Shown: one piece after another, positions 53,693 to 58,678 of the stretch
Position numbering within the stretch: position 1 is the first letter of the stretch
Layout: each line of letters begins with the position of its first letter
Assembly (NCBI GenBank): GCA_036405675.1
Contig: DASWXD010000004.1
Coordinates: forward strand, 4,766 to 68,765
DNA length: 64,000 bases
Origin: Sediminibacterium sp.
GTDB taxonomy: Bacteria; Bacteroidota; Bacteroidia; Chitinophagales; Chitinophagaceae
Direction of reading: 5' to 3'
Translations under genes and position numbers: made by a program
The notes under the pieces: generated by a model
Database searches by the model: none
What the model was told of the DNA's origin: nothing
What the model saw: only the letters and a program-made list of their open reading frames with translations

Positions 53693-54595
53693 ATGATAAT
53701 CTTTACCAAAAGGTTACTGGCCATTGTATGCCTTAGCCTGACCCTAGTTACTGCCCGCGCACAGCAGGTAGATCTTTTCAAAATGCAGGACAGCACCAAT
53801 GCTGCCGACAATAAAACCCTGGGTAACGAACCGGTCATCAACACTTTTTACTCTACCCGCCTGGTAAACAGCCATACCGTTGAAATGCTCGGGCCGGGTA
53901 GTATGGATTTCCGGATCAACCACCGTTTCTCACCCCTGAATATGGGTCTATACGATATGTTCGGCCTCGACTATGCTTCTATGCGTATGGGCTTTGATTT
54001 TGGGTTATCCAAAAATCTGATGGTGGGCATTGGCCGCTCAACCATTTATAAAGAGCTGGATGGTTTTATCAAATACAGGGTCATGCACCAAAGCACCGGA
54101 ACCGGTGCACCACTATCCATCACACTCTTAGGTGCCATGGCCTATCGCAGCATAGATATGGACCCTACGCTGAAAGTGACCGGCTCAGACAGAACCTATT
54201 ATACGGCTCAGGTATTGATAGCGCGTAAACTCAATGCCAATACTTCCCTGCAGCTATCACCTACCTATACCCGTTACAACCGTTTGATCTACTTAACCGG
54301 CGGTGCCAAAGACCTTTTTTCAGTAGGGTTTCTGGCCAGACAGAAAATCAGCAAGCGTGTAAGCATTAACCTGGAGTATTTTGCCAGCACCAAGAGCTTT
54401 AATGGTACATATGATCCGTTGTCTGTTGGGGTAGATATCAATACAGGCGGGCACGTATTCCAGCTGCATTTTACCAATGCCACAGGCATGAACGAACATA
54501 GTTTTATCCATGAAACCACCGGATCCTGGGGCAAGGGAGATATCCGCTGGGGATTCAATATCTCCCGGATCTTCCACATTGGCAGAAAAAAGTAA
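53693..54595 (+). CDS. DUF5777 family beta-barrel protein
   Basis: TRLVNSHTVE, FRINHRF, INTGGHVFQLHFTN, GFNISRIF. Confidence 0.88.
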   Translation: MIIFTKRLLAIVCLSLTLVTARAQQVDLFKMQDSTNAADNKTLGNEPVINTFYSTRLVNSHTVEMLGPGSMDFRINHRFSPLNMGLYDMFGLDYASMRMGFDFGLSKNLMVGIGRSTIYKELDGFIKYRVMHQSTGTGAPLSITLLGAMAYRSIDMDPTLKVTGSDRTYYTAQVLIARKLNANTSLQLSPTYTRYNRLIYLTGGAKDLFSVGFLARQKISKRVSINLEYFASTKSFNGTYDPLSVGVDINTGGHVFQLHFTNATGMNEHSFIHETTGSWGKGDIRWGFNISRIFHIGRKK

Positions 54596-54624
54596 CCGTT
54601 TTACAATCCAATATCTACTTACTG

Positions 54625-54665
54625 AAAGCCCGCTATAGGAGATTTTACCCTCCTGCGGGCTTTTT
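54625..54665 (+). terminator. Probable intrinsic terminator
   Basis: AAAGCCCGC...AGGA/TCCT...GCGGGC plus T5. Confidence 0.65.
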
Positions 54666-54714
54666 CAATTTTGTATGAGTCTCTCTATAATTTTGTCATA
54701 AGCCCCTTACCCTT

Positions 54715-54722
54715 TATCTTTG
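54715..54722 (+). promoter_or_regulatory. Bacteroidota -7 promoter element for the metH leader
   Basis: TATCTTTG exact match, about 15 nt before the riboswitch-like element. Confidence 0.7.
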
Positions 54723-54734
54723 TCATTCTTACTA

Positions 54735-54836
54735 CAGGCGGATTTGTTTATTGTTCGGCCTGATTTCCCGCTTCGGCGGAAACAATCGAACTAATAAACG
54801 TTTTGAAGTGCTCTACACATACCACCTTCCAAAGCG
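54735..54836 (+). ncRNA. SAM-II-like riboswitch with long inserted hairpin (SAM-II long-loop type)
   Basis: GGCG-GAUUUG-[hairpin with C-UUCG-G]-CGUUUUGAAG-UGCU-loop-CUUCCAAAGCG can fold as an H-type pseudoknot; sits upstream of metH. Confidence 0.62.
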
Positions 54837-54908
54837 TTTACAGTTCCTTATATAAATGATCCCGTAATGGCATCTGTTGGATGCTGCTATGAGATAAAAA
54901 CATCGTAT

Positions 54909-55922
54909 ATGGATATCAGAAAAGAATTGGAAAAACGTATTCTTGTCATCGATGGCGCCATGGGTACCATGATACAGCGGCATAAACTGTCAGAAGCCGA
55001 TTACCGGGGAGAGCGGTTTAAAGACTGGCATTCGGATGTAAAGGGCAATAACGACCTGCTTTGTATTACGCAGCCCGAGATCATCAAAGGTATTCATAAA
55101 TTATACCTGGCAGCCGGGGCCGATATCATTGAAACCAACACTTTCAGCAGCACTGTCATTGCCATGGCTGATTATGATATGCAATCGCTGGCCTATGAAC
55201 TCAATGTAGCTGCCGCCAAATGTGCCAAAGATGCTGTAAAGGAATTTATGGCAGAAAACCCAGGTACCACACCCAAATTTGTAGCCGGTGCCATCGGACC
55301 ATTGAATAAAACCCTGAGTCTTTCCCCCGACGTAAATAATCCCGGTTTCCGTGCCGTTACTTTTGATGAAGTAGTAGCAGCTTACTACGAACAAATCAAA
55401 GGCCTGGTAGATGGCGGGGTAGACATACTGCTGATTGAAACCATCTTCGATACCCTCAATGCCAAAGGCGCCATTTTCGCCGCCAAAAAATATTTCCGCG
55501 ATCAGCAACGTGAAGAACTACCCATCATGATCAGCGGTACCATTACCGATGCATCGGGCAGAACACTCAGCGGACAAACCCTCGAAGCTTTTTATACCTC
55601 CGTAATGCATGCGCGGCCCTTAAGCGTTGGCTTGAACTGTGCGCTGGGTGCGGCCGAAATGAGAAGTCATATTGAGGAGCTTTCACAGATTGCCGCCTGT
55701 TATACTTCTGCTTACCCCAATGCCGGATTACCCAATGCCATGGGCGAGTACGATGAACAACCGCATGAAACCGCGCATTTTATTGAAGAATGGGCCAAAG
55801 AAGGCTTCGTGAATATTGTAGGCGGTTGTTGCGGTACCACACCGGACCATATCAAACATATCGCGGATCATGTCAGGAAAATTGCACCAAGAATATTGCC
55901 GGTGCTGGAACAAAGTTTATAA
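54909..55922 (+). CDS. metH: Methionine synthase, homocysteine-binding half (split MetH)
   Basis: [42 protein letters not shown]; ATG at 54909. Confidence 0.95.
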
Positions 55923-55966: not shown

Positions 55967-58678
55967 ATGAGCACAACCATCAAACCTTACTTACGTTTGT
56001 CAGGCCTGGAACCACTGGTGATCAGACCCGAAACCAATTTTGTAAATGTTGGCGAGCGTACCAATGTTACCGGCTCTAAAAAATTTGCCAGACTGGTACG
56101 CGATGGGCGGTATGAAGAAGCCCTGTCAGTAGCCCGCCAACAGGTAGAGAATGGTGCACAGATCCTGGACGTGAATATGGACGATGCCATGCTGGATGGG
56201 GTGAGTGCTATGACCACTTACCTCAACCTCCTGCAAAGCGAACCGGATATTGCCCGCATCCCCATCATGATCGACAGTTCCAAATTCGAGATCATTGAAG
56301 CGGGGTTGAAATGTGTTCAGGGTAGGTGTATCGTGAACTCTATCTCCATGAAAGAAGGAGAAGAGAAGTTTATTGAACAGGCTTTCACCTGCAAAGCCTA
56401 TGGCGCTGCGGTGATTGTGATGGCGTTTGATGAAATCGGTCAGGCCGATACCAAACAGCGGAAAGTAGAAATCTGCCACCGGGCCTATAAGATCCTCACA
56501 GAGAAAGTAGGATATGATCCGCAGGATATCATTTTTGACCCTAACATTTTTGCGATCGCTACCGGCATCGAAGAACATAATAATTACGCGGTTGATTTTA
56601 TCGAAGCCACCCGCGAGATCAAACAACTGATGCCTTTGGCCAAAGTGAGCGGCGGGGTATCGAATGTATCTTTTTCTTTCCGCGGTAACGACCATGTTAG
56701 GGAAGCCATCCACTCCGTATTTCTGTTCTACGCCATTAAGGCGGGTATGGATATGGGTATTGTAAATGCCGGACAGCTGGTAGTATACGATGAAATAGAA
56801 CCCACGCTGAAACAGTTGTGCGAAGATGTAATCCTGAACCGCAACAACGATAATAACGAAGCCACAGAAAAACTGATTGTATTTGCCGAAACGGTGAAAG
56901 CAAAGGGCAAAGTGGAAGTAAAAGATGAAGCCTGGAGAAATGAACCCGTAGAAAAACGATTGGCACATTCACTTATCAACGGTATCACCGATTATATTGA
57001 AGCAGATACAGAAGAAGCCCGCCAGAAATACCCCACCCCACTGGAAGTGATCGAAGGACCATTGATGGATGGTATGGGAATTGTAGGTGACCTCTTCGGT
57101 GCCGGAAAAATGTTTCTGCCGCAGGTAGTTAAAAGCGCCCGTGTAATGAAGAAAAGCGTGGCCGTACTCACCCCTTATATTGAGGCAGAAAAAGAAGAAA
57201 GAAAACAGGCACACCTTACCGCCGGAACCACCAACAACGAAGCTGCGGGTGCCGCTAAGATACTACTGGCCACAGTAAAAGGGGATGTACATGATATCGG
57301 TAAAAACATTGTGGGTGTGGTACTGGGCTGTAACGGTTACGATATTATTGACATGGGTGTGATGGTACCCGCTGATAAAATCCTCGAAACTGCACAAAGG
57401 GAAAAAGCAGATATCATTGGTCTGAGTGGTCTGATCACTCCGTCACTCGACGAGATGGTTCATATTGCCAAAGAAATGAAACGCCGGGGCATGACACAAC
57501 CCCTGCTCATTGGTGGTGCCACTACTTCGCGTATCCATACTGCTGTTAAAATTGCACCGGAATACCAGGAAGGCGTAGTGCATGTACTGGATGCATCCAG
57601 AAGTGTAACCGTTGCCGGTTCGCTGCTGAGTAAAGAACAGAAACCCGATTTTCTCCAGGGGATAAAAGAAGAATATGTCAAATTGAAAGAAGGATTTGAT
57701 AACAAGAAAGTCGTAAAAACCTACCTCCCATACAGCGAAGCACTGCAGAACAAAGTGGCGGTTGACTGGAAAAATCATACTACACAAACCCCCACATTTA
57801 CCGGCACCAAAGTGTTTGAAGCATACGACCTGAATAGTCTCCGACCATTCATAGACTGGAAACCTTTCTTTATTGCCTGGGAAATGCATGGCAATTTCCC
57901 GGATATTTTAACCGATAGCGTAGTAGGTACAGAAGCTACCAAACTGTATAACGACGCCAATGCGTTAATTGATCAGCTCATTGCAGAAAAATGGCTGACG
58001 GCCAAGGGAACTATCGGTTTCTGGGAAGCCAGCAGTGTGGAAGATGATGTGGAAGTAATTTCACCTGATGGTCCGGTGCAACTTTCCTTCCTGCGCCAGC
58101 AGATCAAAAAAGCAGCGGATCAGCCTAATTTATCACTGGCAGATTTTATTGCTCCCAAAACCAGTGGTAAAAAAGATTTTATCGGCGCCTTTGCCGTAAC
58201 CCTGCATGGCATAGAAGAACATATCAAAAAGTTTGAAGCCAACCACGACGATTACAACAAAATCATGTTACAGGCATTGGCCGACAGGTTTGCAGAAGCC
58301 TTTGCAGAAGCCTTACACCTGCAGGTAAGAAAAGAATACTGGGGCTACGATAAAGACGAACAGCTGAGCAACGAAGACCTGATCAAGGAACAATATATGG
58401 GTATCAGGCCGGCACCGGGTTATCCTGCCTGTCCGGATCATACAGAAAAATACAAACTCTTTGATCTGCTCAAAGCAACTGATACCATTGGGGTGCAGCT
58501 TACCGAGAGCCTGGCCATGTATCCGGCCTCTTCTGTTTGCGGCTGGTATTTCTCTAATCCCAAAAGTCAGTACTTCGGCGTTGGAAAGATCCAGCGCGAT
58601 CAGCTGGAAGAGTATGCCAAACGCAAACACATGCCGTTGGCAGAAGCGGAAAGATGGCTGAGTCCGGTACTGGAATAA
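55967..58678 (+). CDS. metH: Methionine synthase, pterin/B12-binding/activation half (split MetH)
   Basis: [25 protein letters not shown] (B12 DxH), [20 protein letters not shown]; ATG at 55967. Confidence 0.96.

What the first reader, a model, noticed from the sequence alone, without database searches (positions are those of the whole stretch)
54735..54836. SAM-II-like riboswitch upstream of metH with non-canonical bases in the predicted ligand pocket
Seen: GAUUUG, an inserted 54-nt hairpin capped by C-UUCG-G, then UUUUGAAG pairing with CUUC-C-AAAG; P1 is weak (GGCG/UGCU). By hand alignment to the metX SAM-II aptamer (AUUGCA/UAGC-U-AAA), the bulged U that contacts the SAM adenine (U44 numbering) is a C at 54830, and the adjacent C-G pair is A-U. 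Long-loop SAM-II variants are described in Bacteroidota. Whether these substitutions are normal for that subtype or alter ligand specificity (SAH or another metabolite) cannot be decided here.
Basis: partly seen in the sequence, partly recalled or inferred. Interest (0 to 1): 0.6.

Follow-up and report, generated by a model that had tools for sequence, protein, structure and literature searches.

The report
SAM-V-like riboswitch variant before metH
The leader of the methionine synthase gene holds a conserved RNA pseudoknot whose core nearly copies the known SAM-V/SAM-II S-adenosylmethionine sensors but is missed by the RNA-family database, differs at one ligand-contacting base, and carries an extra competing hairpin.

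Summary
There is a real, strongly conserved cis-regulatory RNA at 54735-54846. It starts just after a Bacteroidota promoter box and lies ahead of a split metH. The true P1 is CAGGC/GCCUG. The "inserted 54-nt hairpin" is the aptamer's own pseudoknot helix (GUUUAUUGUUC with GAAC-U-AAUAAAC). UUUUGAAG/CUUC-C-AAAG belongs to an added 3' hairpin whose far strand competes for the same middle strand.

No Rfam model (SAM-II, SAM-II long loops, SAM-V) reaches even E=10. Even so, the core aligns almost letter for letter with the crystallised SAM-V metY aptamer (z 6.5-8 against shuffles):
- third strand, 6 of 7 bases identical
- P2 strands AUUGUUC/GAAC-U-AAU against AUUGUAC/GUAC-U-AAA
- the adenine-binding bulged U is kept (U54792)

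Only the position of A50, which contacts the amino-acid end of SAM, differs (U54795).

The element sits before metH in about 70% of Chitinophagaceae genomes sampled and in three sister families. In the sister families the 3' pseudoknot strand abuts the AUG, the layout of a translational OFF switch. How the window's version acts downstream remains unresolved.

Verdict: new variant of a known kind. The scan reached the same reading earlier on other genomes (e1-5256780, e1-5133571).

The parts
54715..54722 (+). Bacteroidota -7 promoter box TAnnTTTG (TATCTTTG); the transcript probably starts a few nt before P1
   Evidence: Sequence. A TAnnTTTG box ends 4-16 nt before P1 in 42 of 45 related loci.
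54735..54739 (+). P1 5' strand, CAGGC
   Evidence: Pairs with 54758-54762. All 5 pairs show changes on both sides across families.
54740..54746 (+). L1 / predicted triplex third strand, GGAUUUG (SAM-V G5-G11 is GCAUUUG)
   Evidence: GAUUU is invariant in 28 of 28 sequences. 6 of 7 bases are identical to the SAM-V metY third strand.
54747..54756 (+). P2 5' strand, UUU-AUUGUUC (P2a UUU; P2b AUUGUUC, equivalent to SAM-V A18-C24 AUUGUAC)
   Evidence: Pairs with 54788-54798. Two pairs show compensatory changes and six are invariant.
54758..54762 (+). P1 3' strand, GCCUG (G54757 is a 1-nt L2)
54763..54787 (+). L3 linker with an optional hairpin (54764-54782, UUCG loop) and an A-rich 3' end. It corresponds to SAM-V P3 plus the A40-A42 linker.
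   Evidence: Length varies from 4 to about 80 nt among relatives, with or without a hairpin. SAM-V has P3 at the same place.
54788..54799 (+). P2 3' strand, GAAC-U-AAUAAAC. U54792 is the bulged U (SAM-V U47, adenine site). A54793 and A54794 correspond to A48 and A49 (triples). U54795 stands in place of A50.
   Evidence: Exact in 70 of 74 further genome contigs. Covariation is and the mapping to SAM-V contacts.
54805..54829 (+). P3 hairpin (GAAG.../...CUUC) with a C-rich, G-poor loop
   Evidence: A hairpin is present at this place in the related loci, with different stem sequences (GAAAC/GUUUC, AACGG/CCGUU, AAAAAC/GUUUUU). Composition is C 33% and G 12%.
54835..54846 (+). Competitor strand, CGUUUAC-A-GUUC. 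It pairs with 54788-54800 (P4) and so excludes the pseudoknot.
   Evidence: The closing pairs of P4 covary (ACG/CGU to ACA/UGU to AUG/CAU). The middle strand is predicted about 90% paired in P4 when the pseudoknot is not modelled.
54847..54908 (+). Rest of the leader, with a local hairpin GCAUC-UGUUG-GAUGC. It is not conserved among relatives.
54909..55922 (+). metH part 1: homocysteine S-methyltransferase domain ORF (start [19 protein letters not shown])
   Evidence: Pfam PF02574, E 7e-101. The start was chosen by homology.
55967..58678 (+). metH part 2: pterin-binding, B12-binding and activation domains
   Evidence: Pfam PF00809, PF02607, PF02310 and PF02965. The start is ATG 55967.

Best explanation
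The element is a riboswitch of the SAM-II/SAM-V pseudoknot superfamily. It is closest to SAM-V and belongs to a lineage-specific form confined, in the samples searched, to Chitinophagales metH leaders.

Aptamer. It is an H-type pseudoknot. P1 is 54735-39 with 54758-62. The P1 loop supplies a U-rich third strand (GGAUUUG) and the 5' strand of P2 (UUUAUUGUUC). This pairs with GAAC-U-AAUAAAC (54788-99) downstream of a variable L3.

Ligand (inferred). By analogy with SAM-V, S-adenosylmethionine would bind in the P2 major groove. Its adenine would sit on bulged U54792 and its sulfonium beside the predicted U54752:A54793.U54744 triple, locking the pseudoknot.

Simple form. In sister families, and in some Chitinophagaceae, the 3' P2 strand lies 0-20 nt before the metH AUG. 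Locking the pseudoknot would hide the A-rich initiation region, giving a translational OFF switch.

The window's form. A P3 hairpin and a competitor strand (54835-46) have been added. Without ligand, the competitor captures the middle strand into a long P4-P3 hairpin. With ligand, the competitor and the C-rich P3 region are left single-stranded.

Shown here:
- conservation of the element
- P1, P2 and P4 pairing with covariation
- exclusive association with metH
- sequence correspondence to SAM-V

Inferred:
- SAM as the ligand
- the OFF direction
- the output step in the window's form. I favour Rho loading or RNase attack on the exposed C-rich, U-rich stretch, with low confidence.
For: Conservation and gene context:
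- One hit per genome in 141 of 201 same-family genomes, with a 28-nt core about 100% identical.
- All 30 family loci plus 14 from sister families lie directly upstream of metH.
- 70 of 74 further contigs with the core carry the exact 3' strand, and 67 of 74 have the metH N-terminus within 600 nt.
- A promoter box ends 4-16 nt before P1 in 42 of 45 loci.

Structure:
- P1: 5 of 5 pairs change on both sides.
- P2: 98% of cells are paired, against 25-48% in slid controls. Compensatory changes are C-G to U-A in 8 sequences and U-A to C-G in 3.
- P4: 93% paired, with 2 compensated pairs.

Simple form: the AUG follows immediately or closely after AAACUAAUAAAC in L041, L043, L044, L047, L050, L052 and L075.

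Relation to SAM-V (metY sequence and contact table):
- Third strand GCAUUUG against GGAUUUG. The single difference is the extruded C6.
- P2 AUUGUAC/GUAC-U-AAA against AUUGUUC/GAAC-U-AAU. A23:U44 becomes U:A, which is compensatory.
- P1 AGGC/GCCU is identical.
- There is an optional hairpin in L3, as with SAM-V P3.
- Global alignment of the window core to metY gives z=6.5, with 0 of 1000 shuffles as good; other family members give z 6.8-8.1.

The Bacteroidota SAM-II long-loop consensus shows the same order of elements: GGAUUUG, then AUUGC, then GC-U-AAA.
Against: - No Rfam model scores it. There was nothing at gathering in the window or in 20 related loci. No SAM family reached E<=10, even for the shortest-linker relative. 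RF00521, RF01726 and RF01826 found nothing at this site in the own genome.
- My core model hits true SAM-II long-loop sites only at 9-12 bits.
- The A50 equivalent is U in all 28 sequences and can pair with A18 by Watson-Crick, so the aminoacyl contact of SAM-V is absent.
- The turn after the third strand is 3 nt shorter than in SAM-V.
- Six of 11 P2 pairs never vary, so they carry no covariation signal.
- In the window's form I found no link between the switch and the start codon. Start-region accessibility was 0.46 against 0.50 in the two states, lower in the locked state in 20 of 32 leaders. There was no loop-to-start-site complementarity and no U-tract terminator after P4 in most members.
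- No ligand binding was or could be tested.
Confidence: 0.7

Rival explanations
1. Same fold, but altered specificity or inverted logic. The A50-to-U change and the shortened turn would retune the pocket to a relative of SAM that lacks or alters the amino-acid end (SAH, decarboxy-SAM, MTA). Alternatively, the competitor hairpin would turn the Chitinophagaceae version into an ON switch.
For: - U at the A50 position is invariant.
- A50 hydrogen-bonds the SAM aminoacyl group, and atomic changes there weaken binding 2- to 34-fold.
- In a few members P4 is followed by U-rich runs (L005, L027, L042, L010/16). If P4 acts as a terminator there, the locked pseudoknot would be an antiterminator.
- Precedent: SAM-I variants that sense spermidine.
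Against: - Gene context is unchanged (methionine synthesis only), unlike the variant classes known to have changed ligand.
- The positions that read the adenine and the sulfonium charge are all canonical.
- The simple form is wired as an OFF switch. That fits SAM, and does not fit SAH acting as an activating signal.
- Most P4 hairpins have no U-tract.
Confidence: 0.17
2. Not a metabolite sensor. The element would be a structured leader whose invariant 18-nt loop and middle strand are recognised by a protein or small RNA, or that acts only as a constitutive translational brake. The likeness to SAM-V would then be convergent.
For: - Extreme sequence invariance without covariation in most of P2 would also fit a sequence-specific binding partner.
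- No family model supports membership in any SAM class.
- The output in the window's form is unexplained.
Against: - The invariance is also explained by a three-way constraint: the middle strand must pair with two partners and also form triples.
- The base-by-base match to every SAM-V contact position except one, plus an identical P1, is hard to get by convergence.
- The two positions that vary do so in a compensatory way.
Confidence: 0.1
3. One reading: a SAM-II aptamer with weak P1 GGCG/UGCU, a 54-nt insertion, P2 formed by UUUUGAAG/CUUC-C-AAAG, and a C in place of the bulged U.
For: The complementary strings exist in this one sequence, and the single-sequence fold pairs 54801-08 with 26-34.
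Against: - GGCG/UGCU is not conserved in relatives.
- The supposed insertion is the invariant core.
- The UUUUGAAG/CUUC pairing is the variable P3/P4 hairpin, which is absent altogether in the simple form of the element.
Confidence: 0.02

Closest known systems
SAM-V riboswitch (Rfam RF01826; metY/bhmT of 'Candidatus Pelagibacter ubique'; crystal structure 6FZ0, PMC6061858)
   Same: - H-type pseudoknot with a 4-5 bp P1 (AGGC/GCCU is identical).
- Third strand G-N-AUUUG.
- 6-bp P2 AUUGUNC/GNAC-U-AA with a single bulged U.
- Both U:A.U triple positions.
- Optional hairpin in L3, followed by A-rich linker bases.
- A 3' tail that overlaps the translation start in the simple form.
- Methionine/SAM gene context.
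   Different: - A50 (aminoacyl contact, trans Hoogsteen-sugar pair with A18) is U and can form a Watson-Crick pair.
- The turn between the third strand and P2 is 3 nt shorter.
- P2 continues as an uninterrupted helix (UUU/AAA).
- There is a 1-nt L2.
- No Shine-Dalgarno sequence lies in the tail.
- The Chitinophagaceae form adds a P3/P4 competitor hairpin.
- The RF01826 model does not detect it.
- It is found in soil and freshwater Chitinophagales, not in marine Alphaproteobacteria.
SAM-II long-loop riboswitch (Rfam RF01726; Bacteroidetes and marine; Weinberg et al. 2010, PMC2864571)
   Same: - Same phylum and class.
- Same order of elements: P1, GGAUUUG, short spacer, (A/C)UUGC, P1', A-rich L3 that tolerates long insertions, GC-U-AAA, then a P2a partner.
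   Different: - P2b is 4 bp (UUGC/GC-U-AA) here against 6 bp in the window's element.
- Every hit whose downstream ORF I read (L066-L073) precedes metK, not metH.
- It was found in 0 of 151 genomes of the window's order but in 14 of 121 genomes of the phylum sample, in other families.
- The RF01726 model gives no hit on the element.
- My core model scores those sites at only 9-12 bits.
SAM-II riboswitch (Rfam RF00521, SAM_alpha / metA motif; metX structure 2QWY)
   Same: Same binding-core architecture as SAM-V (the cores superimpose at 0.37 A according to PMC6061858). Same ligand logic and same pathway.
   Different: - P1 is usually 6 bp or more and P2 is 4 bp.
- There is no L3 hairpin.
- Most members act on transcription.
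- It is mainly alphaproteobacterial.
- The best RF00521 hit in the own genome scores 17 bits at an unrelated place.

Membership tests
SAM-V (RF01826) | Scores at or above the family's covariance-model cut-off (41 bits) | tested here: not met
   No RF01826 match at E<=10 in 54590-54920 or in the shortest-linker relative. There was none in the own genome at E<=0.01 (that search had no positive control).
SAM-V (RF01826) | H-type pseudoknot: short P1 whose loop pairs with a 3' strand to give a 6-bp P2 | tested here: met
   P1: 5 of 5 pairs have double changes. P2: 98% paired, with 2 compensated pairs, against 25-48% paired in slid controls.
SAM-V (RF01826) | Third strand G-C-A-U-U-U-G that forms the major-groove triples | tested here: met
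   GGAUUUG at 54740-46. This is 6 of 7 identical, the difference being the extruded C6, and GAUUU is invariant. Triplex formation itself cannot be tested here.
SAM-V (RF01826) | Single bulged U (U47) between C46 and A48 that pairs with the SAM adenine, plus the U20:A48 and U19:A49 pairs | tested here: met
   GAAC-U-AA at 54788-94 with UUG at 54751-53. These are invariant in 28 of 28 sequences and in 70 of 74 further contigs.
SAM-V (RF01826) | A50 forming a non-canonical pair with A18 and binding the aminoacyl group of SAM | tested here: not met
   The position is U54795 in all sequences, opposite A54750, which allows a Watson-Crick pair (columns 19-74 AU in 28 of 28).
SAM-V (RF01826) | Selective binding of SAM over SAH | not testable with these tools
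   This needs in-line probing or ITC.
SAM-II long loops (RF01726) | Scores at or above the cut-off (44 bits) | tested here: not met
   No hit in the own genome at E<=1. 0 of 151 genomes in the order had a hit, while the Bacteroides thetaiotaomicron control was positive.
SAM-II long loops (RF01726) | Core words GAUUUG ... (A/C)UUGCAA ... AUGC-U-AAA with an insertion-tolerant L3 | tested here: inconclusive
   GAUUUG, AUUG, C-U-AA and a variable L3 are shared, but the GC/GC part of P2b is UU.C/G.AA in the window's element.
SAM-II (RF00521) | Scores at or above the cut-off (36 bits) | tested here: not met
   No hit at the locus. The best hit in the own genome is 17.2 bits, elsewhere.

The most novel reading that the evidence does not exclude
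The invariant A50-to-U change and the compressed turn have retuned a SAM-V-type pocket to a different ligand, or to a different recognition mode. The added competitor hairpin makes the Chitinophagaceae version work by a route not described for this superfamily: ligand-dependent exposure of a C-rich stretch for Rho or an RNase, or even an ON switch. Under this reading, one aptamer lineage shows two output logics on the same gene.
Probability: 0.2. Interest if true: 0.8.

Novelty: new variant of a known kind. Interest (0 to 1): 0.5.

Why it matters
This element probably regulates the B12-dependent methionine synthase in most Chitinophagaceae, an abundant soil, rhizosphere and freshwater group. 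Standard RNA annotation does not see it.

It extends the SAM-II/SAM-V superfamily with a branch that keeps the adenine- and sulfonium-reading positions but replaces the base that holds the amino-acid end of SAM. That makes it a natural test of how much that contact matters for affinity and for SAM/SAH discrimination.

The simple and extended forms sit on the same gene. They offer a clean natural pair for studying how an expression platform is rebuilt around an unchanged aptamer.

In practice, a covariance model built from these sequences would fill an annotation gap.

Tried and rejected
1. Rfam membership. cmscan at gathering and at E<=10 on the window, on 20 related loci and on the shortest-linker relative gave no SAM family. 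Whole-genome searches with RF00521, RF01726 and RF01826 found nothing at this site.

2. Reverse test. My core model, run with filters off on true SAM-II long-loop loci, gave only 9-12 bits at 2 of 8 sites. The models do not establish homology. The sequence alignment to the crystallised SAM-V RNA does show similarity.

3. Competitor strand hiding the start site when released. Constrained partition-function folding of 32 leaders gave mean unpaired probability of -20..+10 of 0.50 (free) against 0.46 (locked), lower in the locked state in 20 of 32 leaders. There is no consistent effect.

4. Free P1 loop pairing with the new start region. Mean duplex energy was -6.1 against -6.5 kcal/mol for coding-region controls. 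Rejected.

5. P4 as an intrinsic terminator. The scan found no terminator here, and most relatives have no U-tract after P4.

6. Leader peptide after the middle strand. No start codon is conserved there.

7. Wider distribution. The core model hit only the window's family in a 150-genome phylum sample.

8. My first tblastn used a metH query in the wrong reading frame. It was redone correctly.

9. Literature. No 'metH motif' or Chitinophaga metH riboswitch appeared in the searchable library or in two recent large motif surveys.

Full report
WHAT IS THERE

The gap between a DUF5777 outer-membrane gene and metH carries several features in order.
- An intrinsic terminator of the upstream gene, with its hairpin at 54636-54655.
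- A Bacteroidota -7 promoter box, TATCTTTG, at 54715-22.
- The element itself, at 54735-54846.
- A 62-nt remainder of the leader, then the start codon at 54909.

metH is split into two ORFs. The first is 54909-55922 (homocysteine-binding domain). The second is 55967-58678 (pterin, B12 and activation domains).

CHECK OF THE OBSERVATION

The region is clearly not a chance feature. A blastn of 54700-54912 against 201 genomes of the same family found one match in 141 of them. A 28-nt core (54735-54762) was essentially identical across more than 100 genera.

COMPARATIVE ANATOMY

I aligned thirty family loci. The alignment shows, in order:
- a 5-bp P1 (CAGGC/GCCUG) that covaries
- an invariant 18-nt loop, GGAUUUGUUUAUUGUUCG
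- a linker of 4 to about 80 nt, with or without a hairpin
- an invariant GAACUAAUAAAC(G)
- a hairpin P3 with varying stem sequence
- CCAA-CGUUUAU-(N)-GUUC

The invariant middle strand is complementary both to the loop (pseudoknot helix P2) and to the last strand (helix P4). The two pairings therefore exclude each other.

A covariance model built from this alignment found weaker copies in sister families of the same order. Four families had hits, but the single hit in one of them (L055) looks false. In the sister families, and in a few members of the window's family (L041, L075), P3 and P4 are absent. There the 3' pseudoknot strand lies 0-20 nt before the metH AUG, for example ...AAACUAAUAAAC|AUG.

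These diverged copies supply the covariation that the family itself lacks.
- The GUUC/GAAC end of P2 becomes GUUU/AAAC in 8 sequences.
- U-A becomes C-G in 3 sequences.
- All five P1 pairs change on both sides.
- 98% of P2 cells are paired, against 25-48% when the partner is slid.
- P4 is 93% paired, with two compensated pairs.
- In L006, the C-to-U change in the middle strand is compensated in P4 but not in the loop. This suggests that the loop G (G54746) is not a Watson-Crick partner in the functional pseudoknot.

DISTRIBUTION AND GENE CONTEXT

All 30 family loci and 14 loci from sister families lie directly upstream of metH.
- In L044 and L049 the element precedes a gene that begins with the pterin module.
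- An exact-match scan of 185,579 species genomes returned 119 or more contigs. Almost all are labelled Chitinophagaceae or Chitinophagales (Cnuella, Puia, Ferruginibacter, Niastella, Terrimonas, Sediminibacterium, Chitinophaga and others).
- Of 74 contigs with enough downstream sequence, 70 carry the exact 3' strand and 67 have the metH N-terminus within 600 nt.
- A core model found nothing outside the window's family in a 150-genome phylum sample.
- Some family genomes have metH without the element.

COMPARISON WITH KNOWN FAMILIES

Rfam 15 gives no hit, at gathering or at E<=10. The own genome has one SAM-I riboswitch elsewhere, ahead of a Cys/Met PLP enzyme. It has no SAM-II, SAM-II long-loop or SAM-V match.

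SAM-II long-loop riboswitches occur in other families of the same class. Every one whose downstream ORF I read lies before metK. Their consensus shows the same order of elements as the window's RNA.

The decisive comparison is with the crystallised SAM-V metY RNA. Its sequence and full contact table are in the supplement of PMC6061858. Written side by side:
- SAM-V: AGGC | GCAUUUG | AACUGU | AUUGUAC | GCCU | P3 | AAA | GUAC-U-AAA | AAAGG
- Window: (C)AGGC | GGAUUUG | UUU | AUUGUUC | G | GCCU(G) | hairpin | ..AAUC | GAAC-U-AAU | AAACG

Position by position, the correspondence is as follows.
- The third strand is identical except for the base that is extruded in the crystal (C6).
- The A45:U22.G5 and C46:G21.A7 triples can be kept.
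- U47, the bulged base that binds the SAM adenine, is kept.
- The A48:U20.U9 triple beside the sulfonium and the A49:U19.U10 triple can be kept.
- A23:U44 is replaced by U:A, a compensatory change.
- A50 is replaced by U. In SAM-V, A50 holds the amino-acid end of SAM through a non-canonical pair with A18.
- The turn after the third strand is three bases shorter.

A global alignment of the window core to metY scores z=6.5 against 1000 shuffles, none as good. Other family members score z 6.8-8.1. Against the second SAM-V RNA (bhmT), z is 3-4.

In the cited study, atomic changes at A50 weakened SAM binding 2- to 34-fold and did not abolish it. Loss of this contact need not prevent SAM binding.

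MECHANISM

For the simple form the inference is direct. A ligand-locked pseudoknot covers the 12 bases before the AUG, as proposed for SAM-V. That gives a translational OFF switch.

For the window's form, the switch is between the pseudoknot and the P4-P3 hairpin, but the output is not resolved.
- Folding 32 leaders with the aptamer locked or free gave no consistent change in start-site accessibility.
- The free loop has no complementarity to the new start region.
- Most P4 hairpins lack a U-tract.
- The stretch that becomes single-stranded when the pseudoknot is locked has an unusual composition. It is C 33% and G 12%, against 23% and 22% in the surrounding loci.

I therefore favour, with low confidence, ligand-dependent exposure of a Rho-loading or RNase-sensitive stretch. 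An ON-switch reading cannot be excluded.

The class-level idea (SAM-II-like, not matched by Rfam, long-loop relatives in the phylum) holds. The fold and the claimed pocket substitutions do not.
- The supposed bulged C54830 is in an accessory hairpin.
- The real bulged base is a canonical U.
- One pocket position does differ (U54795), so the question about specificity remains open in a corrected form.

EARLIER NOTES OF THIS SCAN

Two follow-up reports on other genomes (e1-5256780, e1-5133571) describe the same element as a SAM-V-like variant before metH. They mention one differing contact base, and one mentions a competing hairpin.

I saw these after I had derived the pseudoknot and the SAM-II long-loop resemblance myself. 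They pointed me to SAM-V as the closest relative. I then tested that with the published sequence and contact table. They are not independent evidence.

VERDICT

This is a real, order-wide riboswitch-type element, and a new variant of a known kind. It is moderately interesting because of the changed contact base and the rebuilt expression platform. It is already known to this scan from other genomes.

Noticed in passing
window 54909-55922 and 55967-58678: metH is split into two ORFs at the linker between the homocysteine and pterin modules, with a 44-nt spacer. The same two-gene layout appears in the related loci. In two genomes of a sister family (L044, L049) the riboswitch directly precedes a gene that starts with the pterin module.
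   Followed up: partly
L004:1644-1750, L013:1589-1695, L025:1365-1471 (-), L027:1591-1697, L030:1376-1482 (-), also L005, L023, L026: In relatives with long leaders, a second conserved hairpin-like motif lies between the riboswitch and metH (GCGAYAG-YAAC ... UUCAACUU ... GUUGYGUCRC). No Rfam family matches it, even at E<=1. It is absent from the window itself. It could be a second, tandem regulatory RNA.
   Followed up: partly
G000:C11:40584-40702 (-), locus L032: The same genome has one canonical SAM-I riboswitch (89 bits) ahead of a Cys/Met-metabolism PLP enzyme. The organism would therefore use two unrelated SAM-sensor folds.
   Followed up: partly
L003, L004, L008, L013, L014, L018, L022, L024 (just before the metH ATG): Many Chitinophagaceae metH leaders carry clear AGGAGG-type Shine-Dalgarno sequences 5-9 nt before the ATG. 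By my recollection Bacteroidota are generally said to make little use of them. Short-leader relatives and the window lack one.
   Followed up: no
window 54805-54834 and the same region of L001-L030: The P3 loop is pyrimidine-rich and G-poor, with a recurrent ACUCC word (GAAACUCCnC), although the stem sequence varies. The reason is unknown. Possible explanations are a Rho site, an anti-SD-like word, or a tertiary contact.
   Followed up: partly
L090, L104, L151, L155: The exact 19-nt loop word also occurs in contigs labelled Lentisphaerae, Gammaproteobacteria, Chryseobacterium indologenes and Gastranaerophilales. None of these has the exact 3' strand, and L104 and L151 also lack metH nearby. 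They are probably chance matches or mis-binned DNA.
   Followed up: partly
window 54629-54668: A canonical intrinsic terminator (hairpin plus U-run) ends the upstream DUF5777 gene. This shows that the organism uses ordinary U-tract terminators, which the riboswitch's P4 hairpin lacks.
   Followed up: yes
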